A stretch of DNA of 64,000 nucleotides, taken from the IMG/VR virus record IMGVR_UViG_3300037400_002261, positions 43,286-107,285 of that record, one strand, 5' to 3'. The stretch is from a virus (lineage: Duplodnaviria > Caudoviricetes). The position numbers were made by a program, and so were the translations under genes. Below are positions 125-64,000 of the stretch, in pieces (position 1 is the stretch's first letter; each line of letters begins with the position of its first letter). The notes under the pieces were generated by a model, which saw only the letters and a program-made list of their open reading frames with translations, ran no database searches and had not been told where the DNA came from.

Positions 125-1717
125 ATGCCCAGAAAACCTAAAGCGCAAGAGGCGCTTACTGATAGTCGTGAAGGTGTTATGAGCCAACAACTTGTTCCAA
201 AAAAGAAAAAGGATGAAGTTGAGGTTATAAATAGACCTACGGCTTTAGATTTTGAAAAAACCAAAAAACTGAAAGAGTTGATTTTGTAGGATGTTTCCAG
301 AGGTAGGACGCAGACTGCAATGCAATATACAAAAAGTTTGGTTTCTACTTATTTATAGAATCCATATAACTTCAGAAGTTAGATAATTGGTGTATCCAGA
401 TTTTTATGGAGAGTTAGTGCGATTTATCGTAAGATAATTTTTTATTATGCTACAATGCCTAAATATAATTATTGTATTGTTGAAAGACCAGAATTTACAA
501 AAACTCCTAATGTTAAAAAAATGTTGAATGATTATGAGACAGTTCTTCGCAGAGTACATCAATTTAATTTTAAAGAAGAATTTGCCACTGCTATTGCTCT
601 TGCAATACGTGATGGTTCATATGTTGGTTATATGTATGATAATGAAAATGAAGGGTCTTTTCTTCATATGCTACCAGTGGAGTATTATAAAATACGTGGT
701 AAGAATGAAGCTGGACAATGGGTGGTATTTTTTGATGCTACATATTTTGCAGTTGGTCAGAATAGAATATTTGTAGAAGGTATTGATGGTGACACTTCTG
801 GGTGTTGGGCAGATGAGTTTATACAAGGATGGAAAGATTATAATTCTAACAGGGATTTAAGATGGTTTATGTTAGATCCATCTAAGACTATAACTCTTCT
901 TGGTGGACTTCAAGATGAATTTGATAATCCATTACCTTTTTTTACTGGGTTGTTTCCGTCTATTCTTAATATGTTATCTGCTGAAGAACTGGTAGCTGAT
1001 AGAACAGAATTAGACAACTTCTATCTTCTTCTGTTAAAGATTGATACTTTTGATGAAAATACTGTTGATGATTTTGAAGTAAGCCTTGAATTGGCTAATG
1101 CTTATAAAGATGCTCTTGAGGGTATTATGCCGAAATTAAGTGGCGTAGGTCTGGCTCCAGGTATGGTGCCTGAACTTATTACGTTTAATAAGGCTAATTC
1201 AACTAATGACGAAAGTATTGTTCAGGAAAATATAAATAATATTTTTGCTCAATCTGGAGCAAGTCAAACAGTTGTTTCTTCTGGAGATTCACAAAGTGCA
1301 TTGAGTATTAAATATTCGCTAATTAATGATTTTAGCTATGTTGCTCTTCTTCTTTCTCGCCTTGAAAAAAATTATCAATATTATATTGATAAAAATATTT
1401 CCGAGAATACTATTTTCACCATTCATCATCAAACACATTATAATGAAGATGAATATCTTGAAAAGTTAAAAACTTCAGCGACTCTTGGTGGTTCTGCCAT
1501 GAAGTATGGCACAGCAATGAATATGACACCATATGAATTTTATTGCACTATAAAATTTGAGTCTGCAATTGGTTTAAAATCTATGATGGAGCCTCTTGAG
1601 TCTAGTTATCAAAAGTCAGCGAATGATAATGATGATGCAGGTAGACCAAGGGCTTCTGATGATGAGATATCTGGAAGCGCAGAGAGAACGAGAAATATAG
1701 TTGATGATAATGTATAA
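125..1717 (+). CDS. Portal protein (530 aa with TAG=Gln)
   Basis: AAGGAGG RBS, then ATG125 in frame with track ORF 455..1717. Three in-frame TAGs (287, 356, 380). C-terminal 'PLESSYQ...GRP' tail, size and position are typical of SPbeta YonE-like portals. Confidence 0.8.
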
Positions 1718-1739
1718 AAATATAAAGGAGTTGATGCAT

Positions 1740-1916
1740 ATGAAGAATGCCAACTTTATCAACACTACTGATGAACAGACTGCGGAGACTCTTAGGTCTT
1801 TAGGTTTTAAAGAATTGCCAAAGTCTGGAAATAGATATGTGTTTATTAATGACAATAAAATGATGTTTTCATCTGATGATATGAAAATTAATTTTACAGA
1901 TATTTTAACGTTTTAA
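1740..1916 (+). CDS. Small hypothetical protein (58 aa)
   Basis: AAGGAG RBS at 1725-1730, ATG1740, TAA stop; track ORF 1701..1916. Confidence 0.7.
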   Translation: MKNANFINTTDEQTAETLRSLGFKELPKSGNRYVFINDNKMMFSSDDMKINFTDILTF

Positions 1917-1952
1917 TTTTTTATCACGAAACGCCATACTTTTACATATTAA

Positions 1953-1981
1953 ATTATATACTATTGACAATCAAATGTCAA
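1953..1981 (-). promoter_or_regulatory. Perfect-consensus sigmaA/sigma70 promoter facing antisense to the portal operon
   Basis: Minus strand reads TTGACA (1981-1976), 17-nt spacer, TATAAT (1958-1953). Confidence 0.75.
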
Positions 1982-1987
1982 GCATTA

Positions 1988-2264
1988 CTCTCCTATCTTC
2001 AGGAGAGAATTTAGTTGCCATACTCATGTTGGGATTACGTCCCCAACTGGCAACAGAAGAATATGGTGGATAATTGCCACCCCTCTTTTATTTTATTTAA
2101 GAGACTGCGAAATGTGGTTTTTGTTTTGGTTTCTTTGGTCAACCTGTGGGTTGTTAATGAACATTATATTTAATGAGATAGTTCGCCATAATGAGGTCAG
2201 ATGGAGAATCTGATAAGGAGCTAAAGTGGGACGGCTACTGCTCTCCCATCTCTGCCTCTTATTA
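1988..2264 (+). other. Hairpin-rich intergenic region, possible structured RNA or leader
   Basis: Stems: CTCTCCT/AGGAGAG (1988-2007); GTTGCCA/TGGCAAC enclosing GTTGGGA/TCCCCAAC (2014-2054); long imperfect stem between 2189-2207 and 2242-2264. Confidence 0.4.
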
Positions 2265-2287
2265 ATTTATTAAAGGAGGAATTTGTT

Positions 2288-3463
2288 ATGGCTTATAATA
2301 AAGAAACTGGAATGTATGAAGGGTTTATATATAAAATAACAAATAATATTAATGGTCATTTTTATATTGGACAAACTCGTACAACTGTTGAAGAAAGATT
2401 TTATAATCATACAAAAGATTATTCAATAAGTAAATATCAAAAATACGGTTTATACAAAGCTTTTAAAAAGTATGGCGTTGATAATTTTAGTGTTGATACA
2501 ATAGAAACTCATCAAGCATTTACACTTACAGAATTAAATAATATATTAAATGAAAGGGAAATGTTGTTAATAGCAGAAAATCGTAATATATATGGTAAAG
2601 ATTTTTTATATAATCATTCTCGTGGTGGGGACTATGATGGTTGTGCAACTGAAAATATACCTGTGATACAATATAATTATATAGGTGAAGAAATTAATAG
2701 ATTTGATTCTATTGTTGATGCTAAAAGAATCACTGGGGTTTCTGGTATTAGTGGAGTTATTAATAAAAAACCATAGAATTTATCTTCTGGTGGATATATT
2801 TGGAGAAAACAAAATGATCCTTTGACAAATGAAGAAATTCGTTTTATTATGATTCATTTTAATACAATGCCGATTAGATAGTATGGATATAATAATACAT
2901 TTATTAAACAATATGATTCAGTTAAAGAAGCTTCTGAATCTATTGCCAATGATAGATACAATAATAATGATATTGTATCACATATAAAAATGTGTTGTGA
3001 ACATAAAAGTAAAACGGCATACGGATATATATGGAGATATGAATTTGATAATTCTTTTGATGATGTAGATTATAAAAACTGTCAATTTGCAATTGAACAA
3101 AGAGAAAACGGCACTGGTAAATTACTTAATACGTTTATCTCTACTATAGAAGCAGAAAAAATAACTGGTGTTGATGATAGTATTATTTCACAATGTTGTA
3201 ATCATAATTTAGATTCAGCGGGTGGTTATTTGTGGAATAAAGTAGGGGATTATAATCCGAATATTCTTAAAACTATAACAATTAAACCAGTTGTTCAATT
3301 ATCAAAACAAGGTGAATATATAGCCACTTACGATTCTCCGACTTGTGCTCAAAATGCAACTGGTATTTATTCTAAAAGTATTAGCAGAGTATGTAGAGGC
3401 TTTTTAAAATCTACTGGTGGATATAATTGGCAATATTTATATGATTATTTAAAAATATTATAA
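2288..3463 (+). CDS. Free-standing GIY-YIG homing endonuclease with repeated NUMOD1-like DNA-binding modules (391 aa)
   Basis: GFIYKITN...FYIGQT motif. Track ORFs 2288..2776 and 2990..3463 share a frame and are joined through TAGs. Four 'V.Q....G..I..F.S...A....G......C....S.GGY.W' type modules. AAGGAGG RBS. Confidence 0.88.
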
Positions 3464-3476
3464 TAGGGGGTGAAAT

Positions 3477-5874: not shown

Positions 5875-5892
5875 TGAAAGGAGGGAAATGTA

Positions 5893-6996
5893 ATGAGTAA
5901 ATTTATGAATTTTGCTGCTAATACTAAAGCTGCATTTGATAATAACGAGTCTGCGTACATGAACTTCTCTCAGCTTCTTGCTGATTATAATCGTGGAGTA
6001 TTCCAGTCTGGAATTACCAAGGCTGATGCAGATGAAATGATTAAGGAAAAATTCCGTCTTATTATGGGTATTGACGAGACTGCTTCTAAGAAAGAAATTC
6101 GTAGAGCAATCAATCGTCATAAAAATGAGATTTTCGAAGTCATAGAAGATACTGTTGACAATATGTTGACATCTGGATGGACAGATAATGAATTTTTCAG
6201 GGACTTCGTGGAAACCAAAAATCTCGCTCTTGGTGATACCAACGAGTTTGAAACAGAAGATGAAACCGTTCTGACAGTTGGTAAACTTAGCGGCGATCAC
6301 TGGGATATTGATAGACAACGCCTCGGAATTGGAGAGGTGTTCCGTGTACCGACTTATTGGGTTGGTCTTGGTGTATACGAGGAATTCGAGCGTGTTATGC
6401 TCGGAAGAGCAGACTGGACTCGTCTTGTAAATGCTATCTATGAAGCTATGGATAAGTATGTTGATGAGGTTGTATATCAGGCCGTTATGGAAGCTGGACA
6501 GAAGGTTCTTCCTGGTTCTGAACAGTTCTATAAGACTGCTGCTCTTGATGCTGCTGCTCATGATGCCTTTATCACTATGGTAGAGGATGTGTAGGCCGCA
6601 AATAGGGGGACTGAGGTAGTTATTATGGGTACGAAGACTGCTCTTTCTAAGCTGAAGAATCTGGCTGATGTTAACTGGATTGCTAAGGAAGATCGTACAG
6701 ACCATAGAAACCTTGGTCATGTTGGTATCTTTGAGGGTACTCGTGTTGTTGAGATTCCGCAGGTATTTGCTAAGAATGATACTACTACAAAGATGGTAGA
6801 TCCTAACGTTCTGCTGATTATGCCTGTAGCTGATAATAAGTTCATCAAACTCGTTTATGAGGGTGATGCTATGATTAAAGAGGTTACTGATAATACTGTT
6901 AACCAAGATATGACTTATGAAGTTAAGTATATGACCAAGCTTGGTGTGAGCACCATCATTGGCAGATATTTTGGCACCTGGAATATCACGACCTAA
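5893..6996 (+). CDS. Major capsid protein (367 aa)
   Basis: Track ORFs 5893..6594 and 6625..6996 are joined by one TAG (6592). Strong RBS, high-expression codon bias, size and position of a YonB-like HK97-fold capsid protein. Confidence 0.85.
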
Positions 6997-7025
6997 TTTA
7001 TTAAATTTGAAAGGATTAAAAGGAT

Positions 7026-8425: not shown

Positions 8426-8426
8426 T

Positions 8427-11043: not shown

Positions 11044-11820
11044 ATGGCATTTAAGTTAGATGATATTATTATTGATCGTATTTAGATGGCAATTGCTACT
11101 GATACTAATGATACTGAAATGTACTATGTTCTGACACAGCTTTCTGAGGCTAATATTGAGATTACTGCGGAGTCTAAAGAAGCTCGTGACAAAGACGGGA
11201 CACTGATTAAAAAGTTCTGGACGGGTAAGAGTGGTACGTTTACGGCTACTAATGCAATGATTAATCTGAATGTTATTGGTGAAGCTTCTGGTTCTAAGAA
11301 ACAGGCTCTTGCTGCTTCAGATCTTTTCCCAGCAATTAAGACTGGTAAGCCTGGTGAAGTTGTTGCAACTCCTTATCTGAGCGAAGGTACTCTTAAGGTT
11401 CACGTAATTGGTAATAATGGTACTATGGGTGATAATGTTACCTCTAAAGCTACTGCTACTGGTTATGGCACAGAAGGTGCAACTGTAACACTTCCGCAGG
11501 ATATTGAAGGTGCAACGAAGTTCGTTATGGAATATCAGAGAACTAATCCTAGCGCAGTTGTTATTAGAAATCAGGCCGACAAATTCCCTGGAACTGTTCG
11601 TCTTGTTATGAAGGTTCTGGCTATTGAGCCTTGCTCTCCTGATAAACTTCGTGCTGGTTATCTTGTTCTTCCGTCCTTCCAGGTTAGTCCTGAAGTAAAT
11701 GTTTCTCTGACTACTGATGCTACCCTTGATTATACTGGTGACCTTCAGGTTAATTATTGTGGTACTGAAAAGACTCTGTATGAGTTCTATTGGGCAGAGG
11801 ATGATATTGAGGAAGAGTAA
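11044..11820 (+). CDS. Major tail tube protein (258 aa)
   Basis: AAAGGAG RBS, ATG11044, one TAG (11083), high-expression codon bias, beta-rich sequence, followed by a terminator. Confidence 0.75.
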
Positions 11821-13374: not shown

Positions 13375-14379
13375 ATGGCTCGTAGCCGAGGAGTTTACAA
13401 CAGAATTTATAGTGACGAAAAATGGTTATAGGTTAATCCTGAAAATAAAGCCATAATGGATGACTTCCTCACAGAGTTGCGACAATAGAAAAAAAGTCCA
13501 AATACTATTGAAGCATATAGACATGATTTAAAATTAATATTTATAAAAATTCTTGAAGACTTTAATAATAAGTCAGTTTTAGAAATGACAAAGAAAGATT
13601 TTCGCCGTTTAAATATTTGGTTTGATGATTCTGGAATGTCTCCAGCGAGATGTAATAGGCTTCACTCTTCTATCAATTCAATGTTAACATTTTGCGAAGA
13701 AGATGATGATTATGATTATGAAGTTAATTATAGTAAGAAAGTGCGTGGAGTTCCTAACGAAAAAGTAAAAACAAATGATGATGATTTCTTCTTTACATTT
13801 GATGAATTTATTAAAACAAGGAATATTCTTGTAGAACAAGGTAGATTGTAGGATGCTGTGTTATGGTCTTTAATGTATGATTCTGGTGCGAGACGTAATG
13901 AAGTATATCAAGTAAAGAAACAAGGTCTTCTTGATGGTAACAAAACAAATATTGTTAGAGGTAAACGTGGAAAACAATTTCCACTTATTTATTTAAATGA
14001 TACGAAAGAACTTATTCGCCAATATCTTGAATGGCGTGGTGATGATGGAATTGATTCATTATGGATTAAAGGACATGGAGAAACTGCTTCTGAGATTGAT
14101 TGTTCTACATTATATGATCGTATTGTAAGTATTAGTAAAATACTTTCTGAGGTTCGTGGTGAAGAAGTTAATATTTTTCCGCATAGTTGCCGCCATAGTA
14201 GATTGCAAGCATTAAAAAAGGGATGGGATGACCGTCTTAAGGATGATGGAGGGAAAAATAAAGTATTTGAATTAGATCAAATATAGGCATTTGCACATCA
14301 TTCAGATTTAACAACTACTTCTGGGTATCTTAAAGATGAAACTGAAGACAAAATAAATGAAATGTTTGGAATTTCATAA
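13375..14379 (+). CDS. Tyrosine recombinase (XerC/D, integrase family; 334 aa)
   Basis: With TAG=Gln the full catalytic set is present: R (SGARRNE), K (GKRGK), HxxR (PHSCRH), H (FAHH), Y (TTSGY). TAGs at 13429, 13486, 13849, 14284. Confidence 0.9.
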
Positions 14380-15368: not shown

Positions 15369-15806
15369 ATGGAATATAAATTTATATTGGATTAGGATTT
15401 GGTTGATGAATATAACAAAATATATTTTAAACAAAATCCTAGAGCCAAAAAACCGTTTTTAACTAAACCTCGTCATCCAACACTTAATGAATGGACAATA
15501 ATGAAAAGACCATATGCTAATGCTCTAAAATAGAAATGGAAAACATTCGGAGTATGGTGGTGTAAAAAATTAGGATATGATGGTTTGATGTTGGAAAAAG
15601 TAAAAGTAGATATTACTGTATATCAACCACATCACAGGCGTGGAGATATTGATAATTTTTGCACTCAGAAATTTCTTTGGGATGCGTTTACTGAAGCCAG
15701 ATTTTGGGTAGATGATGATTACACTCATGTTACTGAGATTACATCTAGAATGGGTTATGATAAAGATAATCCACGAACTGAAATAATTATTAAAACAGTT
15801 GATTAA
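15369..15806 (+). CDS. rusA: RusA-like Holliday junction resolvase
   Basis: 'RRGDIDN...K...DA......WVDDD...V...........PRTEI.I' RusA signature. ATG15369 is in frame with track ORF 15585..15806. Confidence 0.75.
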
Positions 15807-17082: not shown

Positions 17083-17197
17083 TAATTAAAATGCGAACAT
17101 AATATATTTAATTCTCCGTATCTGAGAAAAAGGAATAAATGGATAATAACATTATATAACTTTAAATTATTTTTATTCCAATAAGGAGGATATTATT

Positions 17198-49300: not shown

Positions 49301-50651
49301 AATTGCTAAAGGTGCTGCTTGGTCAACTGCTACCGATTCAGCTGATGCTGCTACAAATTCTGATATGTTTTATGTAAGACATGACGGTAAATTATATGCT
49401 AAAGATGCAGATATAGAGGGTAAAATAACAGCCACATCTGGTAGTTTTTCTGGTACTATTACAGCTAAGTCTGGATATATTGGGTATCTAAATGAATCGA
49501 ATAAAGGTTGGTATATTAGTACTGGTGCAATATATTCTGGCCCAACATCTGTTACTGATGCTAAAGCTGGAACATATATTGGTACAGGTGGTATATAGAA
49601 TTATTAGAGTAGTACATCTTATGTAAGAATAACTGGTGGTAAAATTACTGCTAATAATGCAGATATAAAAGGAACTATTGATTCAATTAATGGAAATATA
49701 GGTGGTTTTAAAATAGAAGAAAAATCTTTAAGTAATGGCAACATTAGAATATAGACTGTTAATACTACCGATCATAAAATTGGTATTTGGTAGTATTAGG
49801 ATGGATATGCGACTGAAAATCCACCTGAACATTACTCTAATTTATATTACGGTGGATTAATAGTTGAAAATGGAACTAATAATTGGATGGAAATAAATGG
49901 CATGACAGGAACTATAAATTGTAGTAGTTAGATTTTATGTGGCTCAATTTTATGTACTGGTGAAGCAAGTATTGGTGGTAGTATAAAAGAAGGAGGAACT
50001 GCTCTTTCAGATAAGTATGCTCCAAAATCCCATACACATCCTTACGTTTCAACCAGTGGTAATGGTACTATTAATGGCAATTTAACTATTAATAATACAC
50101 TATAGTCTAATGGTACATTAAAACTTACTGCGGACGCTGATAATACAAAATGTACAATTAATTATAGTGGTAATGGTAATTTTTATACTGTTATTCCTGG
50201 TACTCAAAATAATCTTGGAGTGCCAGATTATAGATGGAATATTGTATATACAAATAATGGTGTTAATAGTGATTCAGATAAAAAACTTAAAGATAATATA
50301 AATGAACTATCATTTGCTACGGATTTGATTATGTCACTTAATCCAATAACATTTATGTGGAAAAAAGGCGATCACCGAAGAAAGCGAATGGGATTTATAG
50401 CTCAAGATGTAGCAATTGTTTGTAATAATATAGGAGAAAATTTATCTTTAGTAACTGCCTCATATAAAGATAAACCAGAGGGCGAAGACGGGTATTTTGG
50501 TGAAAGTGTCGATGATGAATTACTTAATTGGAGTCTTTCATATGAGTAGTTAATAGCCCCTACAATAAAGGTCGTACAAGACCTTTATAACCAAGTCCAA
50601 CAACTTAACCAAGAAATTAAACAACTCAAACAACAATTACAAGAGAGATAA
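46359..50651 (+). CDS. Tail tip/Tal-like spike protein with C-terminal peptidase S74 intramolecular chaperone (1,430 aa)
   Basis: ATG46359. Track ORFs 46674, 47394, 48408, 48795, 49365 and 50220 share a frame. Beta-helix-like 'G.I.A..G.IGG(F/W).I' repeats, then 'SDKKLKDNI...L.P..F.W....GFIAQDV...YEQLIAP' and a terminal coiled coil. Confidence 0.8.
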
Positions 50652-51244: not shown

Positions 51245-54200
51245 ATGGATATTAATGTTAACTTATCTCATCAAACAATGAGGGTTGCAACAGATCTTAA
51301 AAAGTTAGTCGCTGGTACTTAGAAGTTTGTCCGTTTCGTTTTCAAACTGCCTAGTGAGTGGGATGATTTTGATGTTATAACTGCATAGTTTGCCCAGAAT
51401 GGAAAAGCAAAATATGATTAGCTTGATGAAAACCATGCAGTTTATCTCCCATCTGAACTTAAACCTGGCGATTTTACTTTGTTAATATATGGCACAAAAA
51501 ACAATGGTGAAATTCGTGCAACGGTAAATGCTCTCTAGCTTACTCTTACTCCAGATGCTTATATCTCTAACGCTAGTGAAGTCACATTCACCGAGAATAT
51601 GTATGATTAGCTGGTTCAGATTATTTCTGGTATTGTTGATCATGAGAATCCGATTACAAAGGGTGAAATCTAGGGATGGGTATATGATGATGCTGTTGCG
51701 ATTCTGCACGATTTTCTTGAAAGCGGAGATTTGACTGGATTGACTATTTTGCCGAAGACAATTGAGAAACAGCATCTTAATGATGAACTTCAAGCATCTA
51801 TTGATCGTGCCGACTCTGCACTTTAGTATATTCCAGATGGTAGTATTACAAGGTCTAAAGTAGATTCCGAGATTGAGGGTATTTTCACTAAAGTTGAAAA
51901 CCTTGAAATGGTTATTCCAGACGCTTCTGTGCCGAGGTCTAAAGTAGACGCAGATTTTGAAGCTACTCTAGTAAAAGCTGATTCTGCGATGCAACCAAGT
52001 ATATATGATCCAAACAATCATGCTACGGATGTTTTTGCTTATACCGATTCAAAGATAGATACTGTTATTACTCCAATTCAGACTACGGTTTCTGGAATGC
52101 GTTCTGAGATTTCTAGTGCATATGTTGTTGATGGAACTACGTATGATAATCTTAGCGGTTCTGTTAATGGTGCGCTCACTAAAGCAAAATCATATACGGA
52201 TATTAAACTGGCTGATTATACTCCATATGATGTTTCTATCATTTCTACTCTTCCACCAGTTAATCTTGGAAAAGATAGAACTTTCTATTTAATTCCTAAA
52301 GATTCTGGAAATGGATATGATAAATGGTGGTTGGTAGAAAGACAAGACCATACGAAAGTCTGGGATAATTGGGGCGGTTCTGCAACTTTGATTGTAGATG
52401 AACTTCCGCAAGAGGGAGATGTAGATGCCGACTACATTCTTGTAGCAAATGGTGAATATAAATATTATAAATATATTGACGGCGAATGGGCAATGATTGC
52501 TGGTGGTAGTGCTGAGATATTAACTATACCACTTGAAGGCGATCATATTATTATGTTAAGACATGGCGAACCAACTGACGAAGTTAGTGAAGATGATGTT
52601 ACTAATGGATTAGTATATCTTGATATTGATACTATGGATTACTATATTGCTGATGAAACTACTGATTAGGAAACGGAATAGGTTGTTCGTTCTTGGAATA
52701 AAGAAGGAAATCTTGTAGAAAATCCGAGTGAAAACAAAGATTATTATTACGATAATAATGGCACTTATATTCATTTTAGATATTCTGAAGATACATTCCA
52801 TCAGGTTGGTAGTCCATCAACTCTTATTGTTACTGAACTTCCGACTACTGGAGATTCGGATGTTGATTATATTTTAAACAAAAATGGTGAATATCAATAT
52901 TATAAATATATTGATAATGAATGGAGAATGATTTCTGGCGGTAGTGCCGAGGTAATTGTGAATGAACATTCTATTGATTACTACTCTCTCCCACCACTTT
53001 CTGATGAAAACATTGATAGTTATGCTGGAAAATATTATTTAGATACTGCGAACCTTAAACTGTATACTGTTATTTAGAATATAGATGAAGAGTATGAATG
53101 GCAAGAAACAACACTTGTGAATCAGCCAAGTGATAATAAAGATTATTATTTATAGTTTGGGTCTGGAAGTATTCTACACTTTAGATATATCGACAATATA
53201 TTTGTTCAGGTTGGATTTACTAAAAATGAAATTGATTCGATTATTAATCCTATTAATACAAGAGTAACAACATTAACGAATAGAATAGATGGGTATGATA
53301 CGCAAATCACTCAAAACCAAAGTAATATTACATCATTAAATAATACTGTTTCATCTCTGTAGCAAGCTGTGAGCGAAATTGATACAGAGGGTTATGAGTA
53401 TTTTGCTGATTACGGAAAATATGAAATTGGTGGTAAAGAAACTGACAATGTTTATAGACTTCGTAGAGTAAAAGATGATGTCGAGGAGGTTGTTAGTCAG
53501 TTTGTAATTCAAGGTGGTGGTGGCGGTGGATAGCAAACTTCTACCAACTTAGTTGTAGAACGTATTACAAGATCTCCGCTTATTATTACTCCGAATGATA
53601 CGGTAATTTTGGAATTTAATTATTCTTCTGTTACAAACGATGATTAGAAAGAAGAAATAGATGGTACTTATACATTAAAACTTGGTTCTTCATTGGTAGC
53701 AAGTGGTTCTTGTAATCAAGGAAGAAACTCGATTGATGTTACATCATATTGTAAAATCGGAACGCAAAAATTCACACTTACTGTTGTAGATGAAGGTGGA
53801 AGTAGTGCAGTAAGAACATTTACCGTTCAAAAAGTTGATGTACGTATTGAGTCTGAATACAATGACAGATATGTTGTTGAAGCTGGAAAAGCTGTACAAT
53901 TTACTTATACTCCGTATGGTGCTATTAGTAAAACAATCCATTTTAAATTAAACGGTGTTGAAGATACTATTACTACTGCTGCTTCTGGCGTTTTACAATC
54001 ATATTCTATTTCTGGGCAACCGCATGGTACATATTTATTGGAAGTATGGGCTACGGCTGTTGTTAATAATACAGATGTAGAAACCAACCATATTTATAGA
54101 GATATTATCTGGTATGACCCAGAAGCCGACTCTCAAGGAAATTATAAAAATCCTGTAATTGGTTGTATTTATAGAAATGATTATTATGGGAAAGTATCAG

Positions 54201-56766
54201 TAAGACAATATGATACTCTTCCAATTGTTTATAATGTATTTGACCCAACTACCAATTATCCAGTTGTGAGAAGGTATGTAGATAATGTTCTTATTGGCAC
54301 TGATACTATGTAGACCTCTCAGGGAATTTGGAATTTTAAATCTGATGTAGTTGGTGATCATACGCTTCGTATTGAATGTAGAAATACGGTTGTAACTATT
54401 GTTGTTACTGTAACAGAACTTGGAATTGATGTAGACCCCATTACTGGCGGTCTTGAATTAGATTTTAATCCTGTTGGAATTACTAATAACTCAGAAAATA
54501 GAATCTGGGAAAATGATAATTATCATATGACAGTTTCTGATAATTTTGACTGGGCAAACGGCGGTTATAAAATAGATGAGAATGGAGATTCATATTTCTT
54601 AATTAAATCTGGAACTAGTGCGACTTTTGATTATACAATGTTTACTGGTGGTGTTGATGGAAATCCATCCAGAACTGGTTCTGAGATGAAGATTATATTT
54701 ATGACGGAAAATGTTCAAAATCCAGAAGCTGTTTGGTTTACCAATGTAGAAACAAGAACTCAGACGGTTGATGATGTTTCTGTAACTATAAATATGGGTA
54801 TTCAGATGAGTGCTCATAATGGTTGGTTAAAAACCAATAAAGCAAGCGATGTAAATGTTTAGGATGGAGATGATTCCGTAGCTGCTTCTAACACATATCT
54901 TTATATGCCGTATAGCGAAGAAGATATTATTGAAATGGATATAAATATTGACCCGATAGATCTTGATGATGAGACATCTACTGCTTTTGTAATGTCGTAT
55001 GAGGATGGTGTTCCATCAAAAGCTTATGTATATGATAGAAGTGATAGATTTTACCAGTACGAACCAAAACCAATCGTGATTGGTTCTAATGAATGTGATG
55101 TTAGAATTTATAGATTAAAAATTTATTCTACATCTTTAAATTCAGAAAGCGTAATGAAAAACTTTATTGCTGATTCTAGGAACTCTACAACTATGCTTGA
55201 TAGATATGATAGAAACAGTATTTATTATAATTCTGAAACTGGTGAATATTCTCCGTATAGTTCTAATGGGTCTCTTGAACCAGAACGACTTGCTCCGATA
55301 ATTCCAAATGTAAAAGTATTGATGTTGGAAACAGACCATTTTACTACTAGTAAAAAGACATTTGTTAAATCTAACCTGAGATGTATTCATGCTCCAGGCG
55401 GTGATGTTTATTCTGGCGATGAATATTATGATAACTGGTATTTTGAGAATGGATGGCATTCAGGACAAGGAACGACATCTGATAACTATGGTAACTCTGG
55501 TAGAAATGTTGATTTCTTATTTAACTGTGATGGTGTTCATAAACCAAGTGATAAGATTAAAGATCCAGAACCAGATTATATTTCAAGAGTAACACTTGGC
55601 TATAATACTGAAAATGCACATACCGAGTCTGTTACTGATTGGAAAGGTGATACTGGTAAGATTAGTCTTACTCGTACTTCAATTCCAAATAATTTCTTTA
55701 ATTTAAAGGTAAATATAGCTTCTAGTGAAAATGCTAATAATGCTTTAATGCAAAAGAGATACTCAGATTTTCTGCCATATATTTCACCTGCAAAACGGAG
55801 AGATTCAAGAATTAAGAATGATATGGAATTTGTACCAGCGGTTTTATTTATTAAGGAAACAAACCCAGATGTTTCTACTCATAATGAATTCCAAGATAAT
55901 GAGTGGCATTTCTATGCTCTTGGTAATCTTGGCGATTCTAAAAAGACGGACTATACTCGTGCATATGACCCAACTGATATGAATGAATTTACAATAGAAA
56001 TTTCTGACAATACTAAGAATAATGCTACTTTCCAAACTGGTGTTTATAAAAAACAAGATGGTTCATATGGATACGAAACATTCCATCTTATTAAAACACT
56101 TGATAAAGAAGGTGAACTTGTTGTTACTCCAGTGTCAGAAGTATCTATTTCAGAACACATAAATCCTGTTCCAGTTGATTAGATTGATGAGCTTTTATTC
56201 CAACAAGGAACAATCAGAGTTATTAATGAAACAGGATTATCTGAGCATGATGGTGACGAAGAAGGATATCTCAATATGAGAATCTGGTGTTTATATAATG
56301 AAGGGTTTGATGGAGACCATTCATTCGAACCTAGATATGCTTGTTGTGGAGATTATCGAGATGGTAAATTAGTCAATGATTATTCTGGGTATGGTAAGCA
56401 ACAAGTAAAAACAAATGAGAAAGTTTGGAGAGCATTTTATAAATGGGTTATCACTTCTACCAATCAATAGTTTGTATAGGAACTTGACCAATGGTGTGTA
56501 AGAAGTGCAGTAGAATTTTTCTATGCATATACTCTTTATTATACAATGATGGATAATAGAGCAAAGAATACATTCTGGCATTTTGCTAAGACTGGAGTAT
56601 ATAGGGCAATTACAAGACCAGTGCCTGAACTTCTCCATATTTATTGTGAGTTGGTAGATGATGAATATGTTCCAACTGAAGATACGGAAATTAATCCTGA
56701 AAAAACTTATTATACATAGTATGCGTTTGATTTATGGTGTTACGATACTGATACTGGACTTGGCAT
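51245..56766 (+). CDS. Exon 1 of ~2,908-aa tail fibre/baseplate protein (BppU-like N-terminus, repeats, Ig/LamG-like domains, CotH-kinase-like domain)
   Basis: ATG51245. Track ORFs 51908, 53693, 54527, 54905 and 56276 share a frame. CotH-like motifs 'QGTTS', 'LKVNIASSE', 'MDNRAKNTF', 'YDTDTGLG'. Confidence 0.8.
52376..53215 (+). repeat. Two tandem ~145-aa repeats in the fibre protein
   Basis: 'TLIV.ELP..GD.D.DYIL..NGEY.YYKYID.EW.MI.GGSAE', 'YLD...' and 'PS.NKDYY......HFRY....F.QVG' each occur twice. Confidence 0.8.
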
Positions 56767-57827
56767 TAAATGTTGGTGCCAAGTATAAAAAATTTCTACT
56801 AATATACGGCGAAAACCAGACCTGAACTGGCAACGCCTTCCAACCATATATTCTTTTATTATTATAATATAAAGGAGGTGAAATGATGACGAAAGAATTA
56901 AATGTATATGGAATAATATATAAAATTACAAATTTGATTGACGATAAATCATATATAGGATAGACAACTGAAAAAAGAGGTTTTAATGGTAGATATTCTA
57001 GAAAGGGGACAGGGATAGAAAGAGTATATAATTATTATTATAATCATAGTAAGCTTGGTATTGGATATAATAAAGATTTATTGGAGGATATAGAAAAATA
57101 TGGGTTTGATGCATTTAGCGTAACTGAAGTTTTAGACGTAGCACAAAATTAGAAAGAATTGGATGAAAAAGAAATTTATTATATTGATAAATATGATAGC
57201 TATAATAATGGATATAATATGACAAAAGGCGGTTAGGGGTCTGTGCCATTTGACAATGATTATTATGCAAATTTAGGAGTTTGTCAATTAACTCTTGATG
57301 GTAAATTAGTTAAGGTTTGGGATTGTGTTGCTGATATTAGAAAATACACATCTTTTAACACACCAAATATTATAATGACATGTAAAGGTATAAATTCAAA
57401 TTCATATGGCTATTTATGGGTGTTTAAGGATGAATATGATGAAAATACAGAATATAAATGGCAACCTAGTAATAATTATAAGAATGTTTTATGGTTAGAT
57501 GAAAAAGATAATATTATAAAAGAATTTATATCTATAAAAGAAGCAGCTGAATATTTACATATTGATAGAACTACTGTAAGAGCGACATGTAATCATAAAT
57601 GGAAAAATCCTAAGTTTAAATTAATATTTAAAAAAGAATATATGGGGGAACAACGACTGAACGTAGAAACGCCGATAGCTATCGGTGATGCAACAGTCTG
57701 AACTCATGCAATATTTCAGGTTTATTAAGAAACATGAGAGGGACGATCAGGTGTAAAGACACCTTAAAGAAGAACCGTCCCCGCCTATAGTAATATTTAT
57801 AGGTCATAAAAGTAACAGAATTTTAAG
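56767..57827 (+). mobile_element. Group I intron (1,061 nt)
   Basis: P1: exon ACTTGGCAT pairs with GTGCCAAGT, terminal U.G at 56766. P10: TGTTG pairs with exon-2 CAACA. P7 core elements CAACGACTG (~57651) and ACAGTCTGAACT (~57692). Terminal G at 57827. Splicing restores 'DTGLGI-NNNGEL' and fixes the frame +2 to +1 shift. Confidence 0.9.
56883..57701 (+). CDS. Intron-encoded GIY-YIG homing endonuclease with NUMOD1-like modules (272 aa)
   Basis: AAAGGAGGTG RBS. 'GIIYKITN...SYIG(TAG)T', 'ELDEKEIYYI', 'NGYN...GG'. The 3' end overlaps the intron core. Confidence 0.88.
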
Positions 57828-60800
57828 CAACAATAATGGAGAACTTATATTCCCATATGGTAAAGAAGATACGGATTATAATATTGATGGAGATGCATCT
57901 TCTGGTTGGGTATTTAATGGTGCAACATCAGTTTTCTGGTGTAGATTAAGAGATTTATTATCTAACGAAATAACTGAAACATTTAATACGGTTTCCGCAG
58001 AATGTTTCAATGCTACTAATTTAATCAATCAATTTGATAGATTTCAAGGTTGTTATCCAGAAGAAATCTGGAGACTTGATGTAGAGCGAAAATATGTGAG
58101 AACTTATACTGGCAAATCTGTTGATAATTCTATACCAAAACATGATACTTAGTATCTTAGAGATATGATGCAAGGTAGAAAAAAATATCAGAGAAGACAA
58201 TGGGTAAGAGATCAAGAGATGTATTTTGGAACAAAATATCTTATGAATAGTGTTGTTGGTGATAATAACCGTATTACATTTAGATGTTATGACCCCGGCA
58301 ATGATGTTGTAGTTCCGAAAGATTATTCTTTAAGTATTACTCCATTCCAAGACATGTATGTTTCTGCAATGTTTGGTAACGGTGATCAAAGATAGATTAG
58401 GGCAAAAGCTGGTGAAACTGTAGTTTTGAATTTTAGTGTTAGTACTACCACTGATACTCAGGTAACTATTTATGGTGCAAATAGAATCTCAGCACTTAAT
58501 GACCTTTCTGCTTGTTATATTGCTGCTAATAACTTTTCTATGGCAACGAAACTCAGAAAATTAGTTCTTGGTAATACAACGCCTGGATATTCCAATTCGA
58601 GATTAACATCTCTCACTCTTGGCTCTAATAAATTACTTGAGGAACTTGATTTAAGGAATTGTAATAATTTAACTGGTACACTTAATCTTGCAGAATGTAG
58701 TAATCTTCTCAAACTATATGCTGATGGTACGAAGATTAGTAGTGTAACTTTTGCTACAAATGGTAAAGTATAGATTGCTCATCTTCCATCTACTCTTAAT
58801 GCATTAGTAATGAGAAATCTTAATGATCTTACGGATTTCCAATGTCAGATGAATTATCTTGAGCAATTAACATTGCAAGGTGGAACATTAAATAGTCTTG
58901 ATATTATTAATGATGTAATCGATACTTTGCAAGAAGCGAGACTTTATGATTTGGATTGGATTACTCCAGATTCTACAATTTTAAATCAATTATTAAAAAT
59001 CAATTCTGCTATACTTACTGGTAAAGCGTATATCAACGGTGCAGTAAGATATCGTGAGTTAGATTCTTATGAAACAAAATGGCCTGATTTTGTAGTAACA
59101 TATAATCCAAATAATATAATCGAACAGTATGCAGCCACTTACGTTAATGATGATGATACTCAATTAGGAGTATTCTATGTTGACCGTGGTGCTTTACCAC
59201 CAGATCCTGTTGAAGATGGTGAAATGGAAACTCCCACTAAAGCAAGTGATGCTCAGTATACTTATACCTTTAGTGGATGGGATGAGATTGAAACTGTAAT
59301 GCTTGCCCCAAGAACTATTAAGGCACAATACACTTCGACTATCAGAACATACACAGTAACGTGGTATTCTCGTTCTGGTGTTCCGATTAAGAGTGTTCAA
59401 GCTGAATATGGTTCTGAAGTTGTATATGATGGTGAGATTCCGACTCGTGTTGATGAAGAAGTAGCTTATGTATATAACATCTTTATGGGTTGGGATAAAT
59501 CTACTGGATATATTACTGGGGATACAGATGTTTATGCTATTTGGGATAGAAAAGTTCTCCCATTATAGACTATTAGCGGAGATTCTTATTTAACCAAAGA
59601 ACTTAATGAAATGTCTCCAGCAGAAATATATGGTCTTGGTAATGCACAATCTATAGAAGTGTCAAGTATTAAAAATCTTGAAGCTAAAGATTATAAAGAT
59701 ATTGTTGTTGGTAATGACTTTGATTTCAATAATGTTGAGTCTGAAGTACTTCTTGAAAATCAATGGTTTGATGGAAGAACTCATATTGATACTGATGTTT
59801 AGTTATTCAGTGAAAATTCAGATGATTTTACTCTTGCTATTGACTTTGAGTTTTATCAACCTACTTCTAATGCTACACTTGTTTCTTGTTTCGAGGAAGA
59901 AGGTAGTGAGGGATTCCGTCTGAGGTATAGTTCTGGTTCTAGTTCTGGTTCTTAGATTCAGTGGGGTGATAAATCTTGTAGTGCTGGACCAGATAGACAA
60001 CGTAGTATTTGTGTATTACGTCATAAGAAAGGCTCTGACAAGTTATTTGTTTATGTTTATAATACAAATAGCTATCAGTATGATTATTCAACTACTAAAT
60101 TTGAATTAACAAGAACAAGATCTACTTCTACCAATTCTGTTATTACATTTGGTGCTTTTAAACATACAGATGGTGGTTATCTTTATTCTGCAAAAGGATG
60201 GATTCATTGGTGTAAAATATGGTATGCGGATCTTGGAGACGCTAACGCCACTGAACTTGCTCAATGGCCTCATGAAACTTGGAGGGCTGAATATACATCT
60301 TTACAATCTTATAGATTAGCTGGAACAAGTAGATATGCAAAGCTTTCATTCTCTCTTAACAACCTTTTATCTAATGGATACATTATGTCGAGTAGTGGTT
60401 CAAATGCTGGCGGTTGGCCCGCAACATCATTACGCACATGGTTAAATGATAGGATTTATAAAGCACTTCCTGTTTCTTATCGGGCTATTTTGAAACGTGT
60501 AAGGGTTTGTTCAAGTGCTGGTAATTTAAGTAACGAAATTGTATATTCAGATGATTTACTTTATGTACCAGCTCTTGCTGAATTAAATGCATATATGGGT
60601 TAGCAAAAACCTTTTGAGGATGAAATTTAGTCTGATACGAATAAACTAATCCCTTGGTATAGTACAGATACACAAAGAATTAAGTTTTATGGTCAAATAA
60701 CTCCTGATAATCCGAGAGTGTTTACCTCTTCAGAAGACCCAACAGTTAATGAATCTAATAATGTTCAAGTTGGAGATATTTGGTATAGAAATACATATGG

Positions 60801-61032
60801 TACATATTACATGTATATTTCTAAATCTGAATATGAAAAGCATGATTTTAGTGGTGATAATATTGTAGCATCTAATGGTGGGTTGTGGTATCAAAGTGCA
60901 TATTCTTGGTGGACTAGATCTCCCGATACTTCTTATGATGTGTATTATAGAGTAGTTGGAAATAGCGGAAATACTTATTCTTATGGGTATTCGAGTACTT
61001 CTCTTGGTGTTAATATCAATTTCTCAGTATAA
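57828..61032 (+). CDS. Exon 2 of fibre protein (kinase C-lobe, leucine-rich repeats, Listeria/Bacteroides-type repeats, LamG-like, C-terminal DUF6273/lectin-like domain)
   Basis: Track ORFs 58165, 58426, 58810, 59611, 60385 and 60718 share a frame. LRR 'LEELDLRNCNNLTGTLNLAECSNLLKL'; 'YTFSGWD' and 'F.GWDK' repeats; 'NAGGWPATSLRTWLN' and 'WWTRSP...GV...F'. Confidence 0.8.
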
Positions 61033-61049
61033 GAAAGGGGTGAGCATAT

Positions 61050-61787: not shown

Positions 61788-61840
61788 CTATTAACCGAGG
61801 GTGGCTAAATGCCACTCTCTTTCTGTAAAGGAGGAATAAC

Positions 61841-62641: not shown

Positions 62642-62656
62642 TGAGAGGAATATTAT

Positions 62657-62818
62657 ATGAATAAAGAAAGCAAATATTTACCCATATTTAGTCAAAGATT
62701 GGCTGGATATTTAATGTATAAAGGTTTTGTATTAGGAAATATGCGACCAGACTATAAAGGTTCTGGAAAAAACGTATTCTTTTTTATGAAATCAAATCAG
62801 ATATTATTTGCTTCTTAA
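62657..62818 (+). CDS. Small DUF5659-like protein
   Basis: GAGGA RBS; 'IFSQRLAGYLM..GF.L....PD......NVFFF'. Confidence 0.55.
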   Translation: MNKESKYLPIFSQRLAGYLMYKGFVLGNMRPDYKGSGKNVFFFMKSNQILFAS

Positions 62819-62833
62819 CTAAGGAGGTGGAAT

Positions 62834-63166
62834 ATGGCTTGTACAATTAAAAATAATTTAATCAAACTTACGAAGGGAGATTCATTAACAACTAAAGTAT
62901 CTATTACTGATGCTGATGGTAATGAGTATATTCCAACCGAAGATGATAAAATAAGGTTTGCATTAAAAAAGGAATATAATGATAAAAAGACGTTGATAGT
63001 AAAAGATATTCCTTATGATACTCTTATCTTACGTCTTGAATCTGAAGATACGAAAAAATTAGAACCTGGAGATTATAGGTATGATATAGAGATAACATTA
63101 TCAGATGGTACTGTTGATACTTTTATAGATCGGCAAAAGTTTGTTATTACTGAAGAAGTATTTTGA
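62834..63166 (+). CDS. BppU-N/Ig-like baseplate-associated protein
   Basis: 'I.LT.GD......I....G..Y......I.FA.K...DT..L..G.Y.YDI....DG.VDT'. Confidence 0.65.
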   Translation: MACTIKNNLIKLTKGDSLTTKVSITDADGNEYIPTEDDKIRFALKKEYNDKKTLIVKDIPYDTLILRLESEDTKKLEPGDYRYDIEITLSDGTVDTFIDRQKFVITEEVF

Positions 63167-63181
63167 GTGAGGTGATAGCAA

Positions 63182-63634
63182 ATGCCAAACGAAAGTATTT
63201 ATTTAAATGGACAATTGAGTTCTGGTGCTAAACTTTCTGGTTCATTATCAGAGCCAATAAGATTTTTATCTGGAATGTTGTCTAATCCAGACACTTTAGC
63301 TGGTAAATTATCAAATGCTGCTTTACGTGGCTACAGTGCATACGATATAGCAGTATTGGGTGGATATACTGGCACAGAAGAAGAATGGTTGGAAACTCTT
63401 AAAGGTGAGAGAATTGAACTTCGTAATAATAATGGAACACTTCAGTGGAAGTATGAAACTGAAACAGATTGGATAGATCTTATTGATTTGGTAGCAATGA
63501 ATGATTATGAAATGTTAATCAATAAACCAATGATAGATAGTATTGTACTTTCTGGTAATAGAGATTTAAGTTTAAGTTATGTGCGAAATACTAATGCACT
63601 AACTAATATGGAAATAGAGAGCTTGTTAAGTTAA
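63182..63634 (+). CDS. Tail fibre-associated protein
   Basis: 'GYSAYDIAV..GY.GTEEEWL..LKG', 'DY..L.NKP.I....L.GN' motifs; C-terminal 'ALTNMEIESLL'. Confidence 0.65.
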   Translation: MPNESIYLNGQLSSGAKLSGSLSEPIRFLSGMLSNPDTLAGKLSNAALRGYSAYDIAVLGGYTGTEEEWLETLKGERIELRNNNGTLQWKYETETDWIDLIDLVAMNDYEMLINKPMIDSIVLSGNRDLSLSYVRNTNALTNMEIESLLS

Positions 63635-63648
63635 GGGGGTGAACTGTT

Positions 63649-64000
63649 ATGGCAAACTCTTATTTAGACTTACAAGGTTTGTAGAGATTTTATAACATCA
63701 TTTCGGGAAGGATAAATCAAAAACTCACGGTAGTTGCTATGACAAAACAACAATGGGAAGCTGAAAACAGACAAACATCATAGTCTGGAGTTCTATATGT
63801 TACTACTGATTATAAAACTGTAACGAAAGATGGTACGACATATAATATTCCAGCATTTAAACTTGGTGACGGAAATGGATATATTGTTGATTTACCATAT
63901 GCTACAGTAGATGAGGAAACTTTTTTCAACCATGTAAATGATCATGTTGTTCATATAACTTAGGCTGAACGTGATTTTTACATGGTTGAAAAAAGTTTCC
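63649..64000 (+). CDS. Tail fibre-associated protein (partial, runs off the window)
   Basis: GGGGGTG RBS, ATG63649. 'YLDLQGL..F' N-terminus and 'W...N.....G.....D...KLGDG.....DLPY' motif; TAG read-through. Confidence 0.65.

What the first reader, a model, noticed from the sequence alone, without database searches (positions are those of the whole stretch)
125..64000. Stop-codon reassignment: TAG encodes Gln throughout the morphogenesis region
Seen: consecutive ORF fragments share a frame and are separated only by TAG, while RBS-defined genes end in TAA or TGA. TAG falls at conserved Gln positions. The intron endonuclease reads YIG-TAG-T where the other GIY-YIG in this window reads YIG-CAA-T. 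Known: code-15 gut phages exist and often carry a suppressor tRNA. No such tRNA or release factor is visible in this window.
Basis: partly seen in the sequence, partly recalled or inferred. Interest (0 to 1): 0.75.

Follow-up and report, generated by a model that had tools for sequence, protein, structure and literature searches.

The report
Phage late genes read TAG as glutamine

Summary
Confirmed. Reading TAG as sense raises plus-strand ORF coverage from 57% to 97%. TGA-sense or TAA-sense give no such gain. The 37 plus-strand ORFs hold 289 in-frame TAGs, 31% of all Gln codons. All 36 complete ORFs end in TAA or TGA.

TAG means Gln. Against two recoded relatives, 239 TAG positions align mostly to Gln or TAG (log-likelihood -467 for Gln, -664 for Lys, the next best). 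Against three standard-code relatives Gln also wins, and four TAGs sit in columns where every aligned relative has Gln. The YIG-TAG-T versus YIG-CAA-T detail is exact.

Genes before it have no in-frame TAG. No release factor or GlnRS/GluRS is found here or in two complete relatives.

This is the late-gene code switch described by Borges et al. and shown by proteomics in crAss-like phages, here in a roughly 200-kb siphovirus with Lactococcus 949/WRP3, Bacillus Kirov/Tsamsa-like and SPbeta-type relatives. It is a new member of a known kind. This scan has noted TAG recoding in at least 33 other genomes.

The striking side observation is one 8,310-aa tape-measure ORF carrying 164 TAGs.

The parts
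125..64000 (+). Recoded late (virion) gene block. It holds 37 plus-strand ORFs, 29 of which contain in-frame TAG. The block begins upstream of the window and runs to the contig end.
125..1717 (+). Portal protein gene with 3 TAG.
   Evidence: phrog_2739, E 4e-62. TAGs at 287 and 380 align with Gln in G001 and G002.
2288..3463 (+). Free-standing GIY-YIG/NUMOD homing endonuclease with 2 TAG. Its motif reads YIG-CAA-T, with CAA at 2372-2374.
5893..6996 (+). Major capsid protein gene with 1 TAG among 9 Gln codons and strong codon bias.
11044..11820 (+). Probable tail tube protein, assigned by gene order with Bacillus phage Kirov. It has 1 TAG among 8 Gln codons.
   Evidence: The assignment is an inference from synteny.
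13375..14379 (+). Tyrosine-recombinase-like gene upstream of the tape measure gene. TAG at 13849 aligns with Gln in all five relatives, and TAG at 14284 aligns with Gln in all four that cover it. Three of these relatives use the standard code.
15369..15806 (+). Conserved virion-module gene. TAGs at 15393 and 15531 align with Gln in G001, G002 and standard-code G003.
20530..45462 (+). Giant tape-measure-protein ORF of 8,310 aa with 164 in-frame TAG (two TAG-TAG pairs, at 29305 and 31270) and no TAA or TGA.
   Evidence: PF10145 at aa 4237-4448. phrog_4211. tblastn hits in 85 phage records, most listed ones annotated as tape measure protein. The gene order recombinase, TMP, Dit, Tal matches WRP3 and Kirov.
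45524..46366 (+). Distal tail protein-like gene (DUF6558) with no TAG.
46359..50651 (+). Tail-tip or fibre protein with a Peptidase_S74 chaperone domain and 24 TAG.
51245..56766 (+). Exon 1 of a large tail gene (phrog_14959), which carries 20 TAG.
56767..57827 (+). Intervening sequence of 1,061 nt, absent from the uninterrupted homologs in G002 and G003. It shows a U.G pair at the 5' splice site and a terminal G, as in group I introns.
   Evidence: There is no Rfam group I match at E<=1.
56883..57701 (+). Intron-borne GIY-YIG homing endonuclease with 3 TAG. Its motif reads YIG-TAG-T, with TAG at 56961-56963.
57828..61032 (+). Exon 2 of the same tail gene. The mechanical ORF 58096-61029 holds 8 TAG.

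Best explanation
The window is the late, virion-building half of an incomplete 107-kb contig from a phage of about 200 kb. The phage is a long-tailed siphovirus related to Lactococcus 949/WRP3, Bacillus Kirov/Tsamsa-like and SPbeta-type phages. Its late genes use UAG as a glutamine codon (genetic code 15) and terminate only at UAA or UGA.

Proposed mechanism:
- The first 39 kb of the contig (early and middle genes) contain no in-frame TAG, so the host's standard-code machinery can translate them. This is shown.
- A phage tRNA with anticodon CUA lies at contig 39098-39172, about 0.6 kb upstream of the first in-frame TAG. It has a tRNA-Gln-type body and A1.C72, G2:C71, G3:C70 and G73. This is shown.
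- A host enzyme, most simply GlnRS, charges this tRNA with glutamine, and it then inserts Gln at UAG in late mRNAs. This is inferred.
- UAA and UGA are both read by RF2, so RF1 becomes dispensable. This is established knowledge.
- Late proteins therefore cannot be completed until the tRNA has accumulated, which amounts to a translational late-gene gate. This is inferred, following Borges et al.

The essential tape measure gene carries 164 UAGs, and TAG is not depleted in it. Decoding must therefore be near-complete, at least about 99% per codon, rather than leaky. This too is inferred.
For: - Coding density: 57% rises to 97%. Across the contig, the gain is confined to positions from 40 kb to the end.
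- Codon counts: 289 in-frame TAG and no in-frame TAA or TGA. Terminators are TAA 27 and TGA 9.
- Amino-acid identity against relatives: the partner profile of TAG matches that of CAA and CAG. It does not match TAT, AAG, GAG, TGG, TTG or TCG.
- Likelihood tests give Gln by about 200 nats against recoded relatives and about 20 nats against standard-code relatives.
- Columns where every aligned relative has Gln occur at 13849, 14284, 15393 and 15531.
- The tRNA(CUA) is found by ARAGORN and by Rfam at 57.5 bits.
- Of the 19 annotated hits to that tRNA in the phage collection, 18 are labelled tRNA-Gln. They include crAss-like phage tRNAs; the one read here (cr53_1) also carries a CTA anticodon, and a Streptomyces phage hit is tRNA-Gln(CTG).
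- Early genes use TAG as terminator in only 1 of about 55 cases and never in frame.
- Two complete relatives (185 and 205 kb) show the same late-module recoding.
- TAG share of Gln codons is 34% in the tape measure gene and 28% elsewhere. It is only 9% in the most codon-biased abundant genes (Fisher p = 4.5e-4).
- Published precedent: Borges et al. (bioRxiv 10.1101/2021.08.26.457843), Peters et al. (PMC9523058) and Babkin et al. (PMC10607447).
Against: - There is no peptide-level evidence.
- Charging of the tRNA by GlnRS is inferred, and the host is unknown.
- The only host lead is a standard-code relative in a Lachnospiraceae MAG contig.
- The two complete recoded relatives lack this Gln-type tRNA. 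They carry a different tRNA(CUA) with a long variable arm, so the decoding agent is not conserved in the clade.
- No RF2, RF1 inhibitor or synthetase was found that would explain near-complete read-through.
- The contig is only about 54% complete.
Confidence: 0.93

Rival explanations
1. TAG is a sense codon but stands for an amino acid other than Gln, such as Glu, Lys, Trp, Leu, Tyr or pyrrolysine. Other reports in this scan claim such variants for some related gut or rumen phages.
For: The acceptor stem (AGGGG..., G73) also resembles bacterial tRNA-Trp; that comparison rests on my own knowledge. Other scan notes report TAG as Glu, Leu or Trp in similar phages (unchecked). In some Bacillota, Gln-tRNA is made through Glu-tRNA(Gln), so Glu mis-insertion is conceivable.
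Against: Log-likelihoods against recoded relatives are -467 for Gln, -664 for Lys and -671 for Glu. Against standard-code relatives they are -221 for Gln, -241 for Lys, -257 for Glu and -319 for Trp. Several TAG columns have Gln in every aligned relative. The tRNA body matches tRNA-Gln genes. The tRNA is an ordinary 75-nt cloverleaf that scores as a standard tRNA in Rfam. A pyrrolysine tRNA would look different; that judgement rests on my own knowledge.
Confidence: 0.03
2. TAG is only partly suppressed. It keeps real stop activity, so each recoded gene yields mostly truncated products plus a minority of full-length protein. This would be leaky read-through used as an attenuator, not a true reassignment.
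For: No RF2 gene and no known RF1 antagonist were found in the contig or in complete relatives. The most abundant virion genes avoid TAG, with 4 of 46 Gln codons, as expected if TAG is decoded less well than CAA or CAG. Only a few tape measure copies are needed per virion (established knowledge).
Against: The tape measure gene has 164 TAGs, so 95% read-through per codon would yield 0.02% full-length protein and 97% would yield 0.7%. TAG is not depleted in that gene (34% against 28%). No gene boundary coincides with a TAG.
Confidence: 0.12
3. The in-frame TAGs are not translated at all. The genes are pseudogenes, or the TAGs are assembly or sequencing errors.
For: None beyond the fragmented appearance of the genes under table 11.
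Against: Only TAG interrupts the frames, never TAA or TGA, across 20,212 codons. Independent contigs from other samples share the pattern, and often the same TAG positions. A matching tRNA(CUA) is encoded.
Confidence: 0.01
4. The host bacterium itself uses code 15, and the phage simply mirrors it.
For: The host is unknown.
Against: The phage's own early 39 kb avoid in-frame TAG entirely, which makes sense only if TAG is a stop when those genes are expressed. The related phage in a Lachnospiraceae MAG contig uses the standard code. To my knowledge, no bacterium with TAG read as Gln has been described.
Confidence: 0.02

Closest known systems
Alternatively coded (code 15, TAG to Gln) gut phages with a late-gene code switch: crAss-like, Lak, Sapphire, Agate, Garnet, Amethyst and Topaz clades (Borges et al., bioRxiv 10.1101/2021.08.26.457843). 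Proteomic proof exists for crAss-like phages (Peters et al., PMC9523058).
   Same: In-frame TAG is confined to structural and late genes. Early genes are compatible with the standard code. The phage encodes a tRNA(CUA). Stops are TAA or TGA. The suppressor tRNA body is about 86% identical over 58 nt to the tRNA(CUA) of crAss-like phage cr53_1.
   Different: The virus lineage differs: a siphovirus of about 200 kb with Bacillota-phage relatives. I could not test whether it falls inside one of the named large clades, such as Sapphire at about 200 kb. No RF2 is present, unlike some Lak and Agate genomes.
phAss-1 / 'Phassvirus' group (Babkin et al., PMC10607447)
   Same: These are TAG-recoded siphoviruses with suppressor tRNAs, recoded TerL and tape measure genes, very long tape measure proteins, and a predicted Clostridia host.
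   Different: phAss-1 genomes are 133-136 kb with tape measure proteins of about 3,150 aa. Here the complete relatives are 185-205 kb and the tape measure ORF is 8,310 aa. No phAss-1-group (BK-accession) record appeared among the listed hits of my phage searches (about 60 further records per search were not listed).
E. coli supE-type amber suppressor (tRNA-Gln with anticodon CUA)
   Same: A Gln-type tRNA whose anticodon reads UAG, charged by the cell's own enzyme. It shares G2:C71, G3:C70, G73 and a weak 1:72 pair. The list of identity elements comes from my own knowledge.
   Different: supE is a weak chromosomal suppressor that competes with RF1. Here the tRNA is phage-borne and must support hundreds of UAG codons, including 164 in one essential gene.
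Standard-code relatives: Lactococcus phage WRP3 (949 group) and Bacillus phage Kirov
   Same: Gene order is shared from portal through capsid, recombinase, tape measure and Dit to Tal. MCP identity is 28-32%.
   Different: These phages use the standard code, and their tape measure proteins are 3,334 and 3,055 aa.

Membership tests
Code-15 (TAG to Gln) recoded phages | In-frame TAG in conserved protein genes, with a large gain in coding density when TAG is read as sense. | tested here: met
   Coverage rises from 57% to 97%. There are 289 in-frame TAG.
Code-15 (TAG to Gln) recoded phages | TAG positions align with glutamine in homologs. | tested here: met
   Gln is best by about 200 nats against recoded relatives and about 20 nats against standard-code relatives. 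Several TAG columns have Gln in every aligned relative.
Code-15 (TAG to Gln) recoded phages | Genes terminate only at TAA or TGA. | tested here: met
   Terminators are TAA 27, TGA 9, TAG 0. The ORFs were defined with TAA and TGA as the only stops, so the independent test is whether any TAG marks a gene end. No gene boundary coincides with a TAG.
Code-15 (TAG to Gln) recoded phages | The phage encodes a suppressor tRNA with anticodon CUA. This is common in the group but not universal. | tested here: met
   Found at contig 39098-39172, 4.1 kb upstream of the window, by ARAGORN and by Rfam at 57.5 bits.
Code-15 (TAG to Gln) recoded phages | The suppressor tRNA has glutamine identity. | tested here: inconclusive
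   The body resembles annotated tRNA-Gln genes (18 of 19 annotated hits; alignment), with G2:C71, G3:C70 and G73. Sequence cannot prove charging, and the acceptor stem also resembles tRNA-Trp.
Code-15 (TAG to Gln) recoded phages | Early genes can be read in the host's standard code (a code switch). | tested here: met
   There is no density gain from TAG-sense in contig 1-39 kb. TAG is also nearly unused there as a terminator.
Code-15 (TAG to Gln) recoded phages | Gln-containing peptides spanning TAG codons. | not testable with these tools
   This needs proteomics of virions or infected cells.
Phage tape measure proteins (giant ORF 20530-45462) | PhageMin_Tail (PF10145) domain and a position between the tail chaperone genes and Dit/Tal. 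| tested here: met
   PF10145 scores 52.3 bits against a cut-off of 33.2. phrog_4211 gives E 5e-63. Synteny holds. tblastn hits lie in phage records, most listed ones annotated as tape measure protein.
Group I intron (56767-57827) | Precise absence from uninterrupted homologs; U.G at the 5' splice site in P1; terminal G; a conserved catalytic core. | tested here: inconclusive
   The exon junction is exact against G002 and G003. The U.G pair and terminal G are present. The Rfam group I model gives no match at E<=1.

The most novel reading that the evidence does not exclude
UAG decoding in this phage is a true, near-complete reassignment that a suppressor tRNA alone cannot achieve. A single essential tape measure ORF of 8,310 aa carries 164 UAGs with no depletion of TAG. 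The phage would therefore have to neutralise host RF1 late in infection through a factor that is still unidentified, since no RF2, synthetase or known antagonist is encoded in the complete relatives.

If the ORF is made full-length and measures the tail at about 1.5 A per residue, the tail would be about 1.2 um. [quoted passage not shown]
Probability: 0.3. Interest if true: 0.7.

Novelty: new member of a known kind. Interest (0 to 1): 0.3.

Why it matters
In practice, any table-11 annotation of this contig and its relatives shatters about 30 virion genes into fragments and hides an 8,310-aa protein, so these records need code 15.

Biologically, the finding adds a lineage of about 200-kb siphoviruses with Bacillota-phage relatives to the phages that gate late-gene translation by changing the meaning of UAG.

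The 164 UAGs in one essential gene set a quantitative bound of about 99% read-through per codon. That bound makes the open question of how these phages deal with RF1 sharper and open to experiment.

The core phenomenon itself is already published and has been validated by proteomics in other phages.

Tried and rejected
- My first guess, from size and GC content, was a crAss-like phage. I rejected it because the MCP and tape measure homologs are Bacillus, Lactococcus, Enterococcus and Clostridia siphoviruses.
- I looked for a release factor and for GlnRS/GluRS in the contig and in complete relatives and found none.
- I looked in the window for a tRNA, including intron-containing ones, and for a homolog of the relatives' long-arm tRNA(CUA). 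Neither was found.
- An Rfam search for a group I intron around both homing endonucleases gave nothing at E<=1.
- I checked whether any TAG inside the giant ORF marks a hidden gene boundary (a Shine-Dalgarno site plus a start codon). Only chance-level weak matches appeared.
- The 512-aa antisense ORF at 5368-6906 looked like a possible overlapping gene. I rejected it as a by-product of the capsid gene containing no TTA, CTA or TCA codons.
- The base after TAG shows only a mild excess of A (chi-square p = 0.016), which is not a clear anti-termination context.
- A host search in bacterial genomes gave a single, standard-code relative in a Lachnospiraceae MAG contig. This is a lead, not a host assignment.


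Full report
**What the window is.** The window is bases 43286-107285 of a single 107,285-bp viral contig. The contig is linear, has 32.8% G+C, and is rated about 54% complete by CheckV.

PHROG and Pfam scans of the plus-strand ORFs, read with TAG as Gln, give these genes:
- a portal (125-1717);
- a free-standing GIY-YIG/NUMOD homing endonuclease (2288-3463);
- a major capsid protein (5893-6996);
- a run of head and tail completion genes;
- a tyrosine-recombinase-like gene (13375-14379);
- a giant ORF (20530-45462);
- a Dit-like gene (45524-46366);
- a tail-tip or fibre gene with an endosialidase-chaperone domain (46359-50651);
- a large tail gene interrupted by an endonuclease-bearing insert (51245-61032).

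The capsid and tape measure homologs are siphoviruses of Bacillota, at 23-32% identity. They include Lactococcus 949/WRP3, Bacillus Kirov/Tsamsa/FADO and SPbeta-type phages, plus Enterococcus and Clostridia phages. These phages share the gene order recombinase, TMP, Dit, Tal. The phage is therefore not crAss-like, which was my first guess.

Under table 11, plus-strand ORFs of at least 100 aa cover 57% of the window. With TAG as sense they cover 97%. TGA-sense gives 60% and TAA-sense 66%.

The 37 plus-strand ORFs contain 20,212 codons with 289 in-frame TAG and, by construction, no TAA or TGA. In the two alternative frames of the same DNA, TAA plus TGA occur 846 and 2,829 times. The 36 complete ORFs end in TAA (27) or TGA (9).

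A Shine-Dalgarno match of at least 5 nt precedes 21 of 37 ORF starts. It precedes only 4 of 281 first start codons after an in-frame TAG, and no TAG coincides with a plausible gene boundary. TAG makes up 31% of all Gln-type codons (289 TAG, 518 CAA, 131 CAG), and 29 of 37 ORFs contain it.

The sequence is TAT ATT GGA CAA ACT at 2363-2377 and TAT ATA GGA TAG ACA at 56952-56966.

**Which amino acid.** I fetched three relatives through the capsid protein:
- G001: 185 kb, terminal repeats, complete, 88% MCP identity, also TAG-recoded in its late module.
- G002: 205 kb, terminal repeats, complete, 91% MCP identity, also TAG-recoded in its late module.
- G003: 110 kb, 39% MCP identity, standard code.

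Alignments were made with X at every TAG, so nothing was assumed about its meaning.

*Against G001 and G002.* The window's TAG codons pair with Gln codons in 36-37% of cases and with TAG in 8-14%. That is the same profile as CAA and CAG (Gln 30-45%, TAG 5-6%). It is unlike the profiles of TAT/TAC, AAG, GAG, TGG, TTG and TCG, each of which pairs mainly with its own residue.

I then ran a likelihood test using substitution tables estimated from the same alignments. Over 239 aligned TAG positions of the whole contig it gives Gln -467, Lys -664 and Glu -671.

*Against standard-code relatives.* Using only G003, WRP3 and Kirov (79 positions), Gln is the commonest partner at 18 of 79. Gln is also best by likelihood: -221, against -241 for Lys, -257 for Glu and -319 for Trp.

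*Individual columns.* Several columns are decisive:
- TAG at 13849 aligns with Gln in all five relatives.
- TAG at 14284 aligns with Gln in G002, G003, WRP3 and Kirov.
- TAGs at 15393 and 15531 align with Gln in G001, G002 and G003.

Other reports in this scan claim TAG as Glu, Leu or Trp in related phages. For that reason the explicit rejection of Glu, Leu and Trp here matters.

**The decoding agent and the switch.** ARAGORN finds four tRNAs in the contig, all upstream of the window. One of them, at 39098-39172, has anticodon CUA, and tRNA-Thr and tRNA-Asn follow it directly. Rfam scores it as a tRNA at 57.5 bits.

It has an A1.C72 mismatch, G2:C71, G3:C70 and G73. To my knowledge these fit the acceptor features GlnRS uses, although the acceptor stem also resembles tRNA-Trp.

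In the phage collection, 18 of its 19 annotated matches are tRNA-Gln. They include crAss-like phage tRNAs; the one I read (cr53_1, 86% identity over 58 nt) also carries CTA. Streptomyces phage tRNA-Gln(CTG) shares the D and anticodon arms.

Across the contig, the TAG-sense gain in coding density is zero from 1 to 39 kb and large from 40 kb to the end. The first ORF interrupted by TAG is at 39420-39809, about 0.6 kb downstream of the tRNA-CUA gene. The early genes also almost never use TAG as a terminator.

No release-factor or GlnRS/GluRS domain is found in the contig or in the complete relatives G001 and G002. The PCRF model gives a single chance-level hit inside the giant ORF.

**Mechanism.** The shown parts are the TAG-free early genes, the phage tRNA(CUA) at the junction, late genes full of TAG at Gln positions, and stops restricted to TAA and TGA. 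The inferred parts are charging by a host enzyme, competition with or loss of RF1, and use of the switch as a translational gate on late genes, as Borges et al. proposed.

Two quantitative observations bear on efficiency.
- The most codon-biased, most abundant virion genes use TAG for only 4 of 46 Gln codons, against 285 of 892 elsewhere (Fisher p = 4.5e-4). These genes are the capsid gene, the ORF at 7026, the probable tail tube gene at 11044, and the ORF at 17363. TAG therefore behaves like a non-preferred codon.
- The tape measure gene shows no depletion at all (164 of 489 against 125 of 449, p = 0.07). With 164 UAGs, full-length yield would be 0.7% at 97% read-through per codon and 19% at 99%.

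So either decoding is near-complete or the phage tolerates a very low yield of a protein needed in few copies. I favour near-complete decoding but cannot show it.

**Host lead.** One relative (74% MCP identity) lies in a 378-kb contig of a goat-caecum Lachnospiraceae MAG. That relative uses the standard code and shares only the head module. The MAG encodes a genuine GlnRS (TIGR00440, 717 bits). Direct charging would be possible in such a host, but the link to this phage is weak.

**The intron.** Exon 1 of the large tail gene ends at about 56766 and exon 2 starts at about 57828. The uninterrupted homologs in recoded G002 and in standard-code G003 are contiguous to the residue across this joint (...YDTDTGLGI | NNNGELIF...), and the two exons are in different frames.

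The exon end GGCAU can pair with GGUGCC just inside the insert, which puts a U.G pair at the splice site. The insert ends in G. These are group I hallmarks, although Rfam's model does not match.

The endonuclease inside the insert carries three TAGs, so the mobile element has itself adopted the phage's code.

**Comparison with what is known.** Late-gene-restricted TAG to Gln recoding with a phage suppressor tRNA is described for crAss-like, Lak and several other gut-phage clades (bioRxiv 10.1101/2021.08.26.457843). It has been confirmed by metaproteomics in crAss-like phages (PMC9523058) and found in jumbo phages (PMC13037316). It is also reported in the phAss-1 group of recoded siphoviruses, which have tape measure proteins of about 3,150 aa and a predicted Clostridia host (PMC10607447).

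This window meets every sequence-level criterion of that kind. It is a new member, and possibly belongs to one of the already named large clades, which I could not test. This scan has also noted TAG recoding in at least 33 other genomes and in neighbouring windows of this same contig.

**What is unusual.** The ORF at 20530-45462 is a single 8,310-aa frame with no internal repeats. Its tape measure core (PF10145 at aa 4237-4448) aligns with WRP3 TMP residues 659-1212 and Kirov TMP residues 444-1185. About 4,000 residues lie before the core, with no detectable similarity even to the corresponding 2,200-2,800 residues of G001 and G002.

At the usual figure of about 1.5 A per residue (my own knowledge), the tail would be about 1.2 um. 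[quoted passage not shown] This is a prediction only.

**Verdict.** The finding is ordinary as a phenomenon, sound as an annotation correction, and carries one notable side observation.

Noticed in passing
window 20530-45462: This is a single 8,310-aa tape measure ORF with 164 TAG, no internal repeats and a PF10145 core in the middle. Homologs in WRP3 and Kirov are 3,334 and 3,055 aa. At about 1.5 A per residue it predicts a tail of about 1.2 um, longer than the roughly 1 um record cited for P74-26. The N-terminal 4,000 aa or so show no detectable similarity even to the closest relatives.
   Followed up: partly
G001 c159771-159866 (L047:19771-19866, minus strand); G002 c102434-102723 (within L034): The two complete recoded relatives lack the Gln-type tRNA(CUA) of this contig. 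They carry a different tRNA(CUA), 96 nt in G001 and about 94 nt after splicing in G002, with a long variable arm. In G002 it is split in the anticodon loop by an insert of about 194 nt. Their TAG codons still align best with Gln. It is unexplained how a long-arm tRNA would be charged with Gln. It has no match in the phage collection.
   Followed up: partly
window 56767-57827: A 1,061-nt intron-like insert carries a recoded GIY-YIG endonuclease and splits a large tail gene next to a YDTDTG motif. It is absent from G002 and G003. Relatives carry similar inserts in other genes: the homolog of 8418-9617 is split in G001 and G002, and the tape measure gene is split in both.
   Followed up: partly
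window 5368-6906 (minus strand): A 512-aa antisense ORF lies opposite the capsid gene and its upstream neighbour. It arises because the capsid gene has no TTA, CTA or TCA codons in 367 codons, against 4.6% overall. The same is true of the capsid genes of G001 and G002. It is a codon-bias artefact, not a gene.
   Followed up: yes
window 14394-15365: A zinc-metallopeptidase-like protein (Peptidase_M10/Astacin, with a HEXXH-type match) is encoded among the tail genes, just after the recombinase-like gene.
   Followed up: no
window 1718-2287 and 16790-17362: These apparent non-coding gaps contain short conserved ORFs. One of them holds in-frame TAGs, and both are similar at DNA level to G001 and G002. 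The mechanical 100-aa ORF list misses them.
   Followed up: partly
L063-L081 (G004 contig C13, about 109-124 kb): A 378-kb contig of a goat-caecum Lachnospiraceae MAG carries a standard-code head module with 30-73% identity to this phage's portal through neck genes. The region at 160-180 kb of the same contig gains 20-26 points of ORF coverage with TAG as sense. I did not examine that region.
   Followed up: partly
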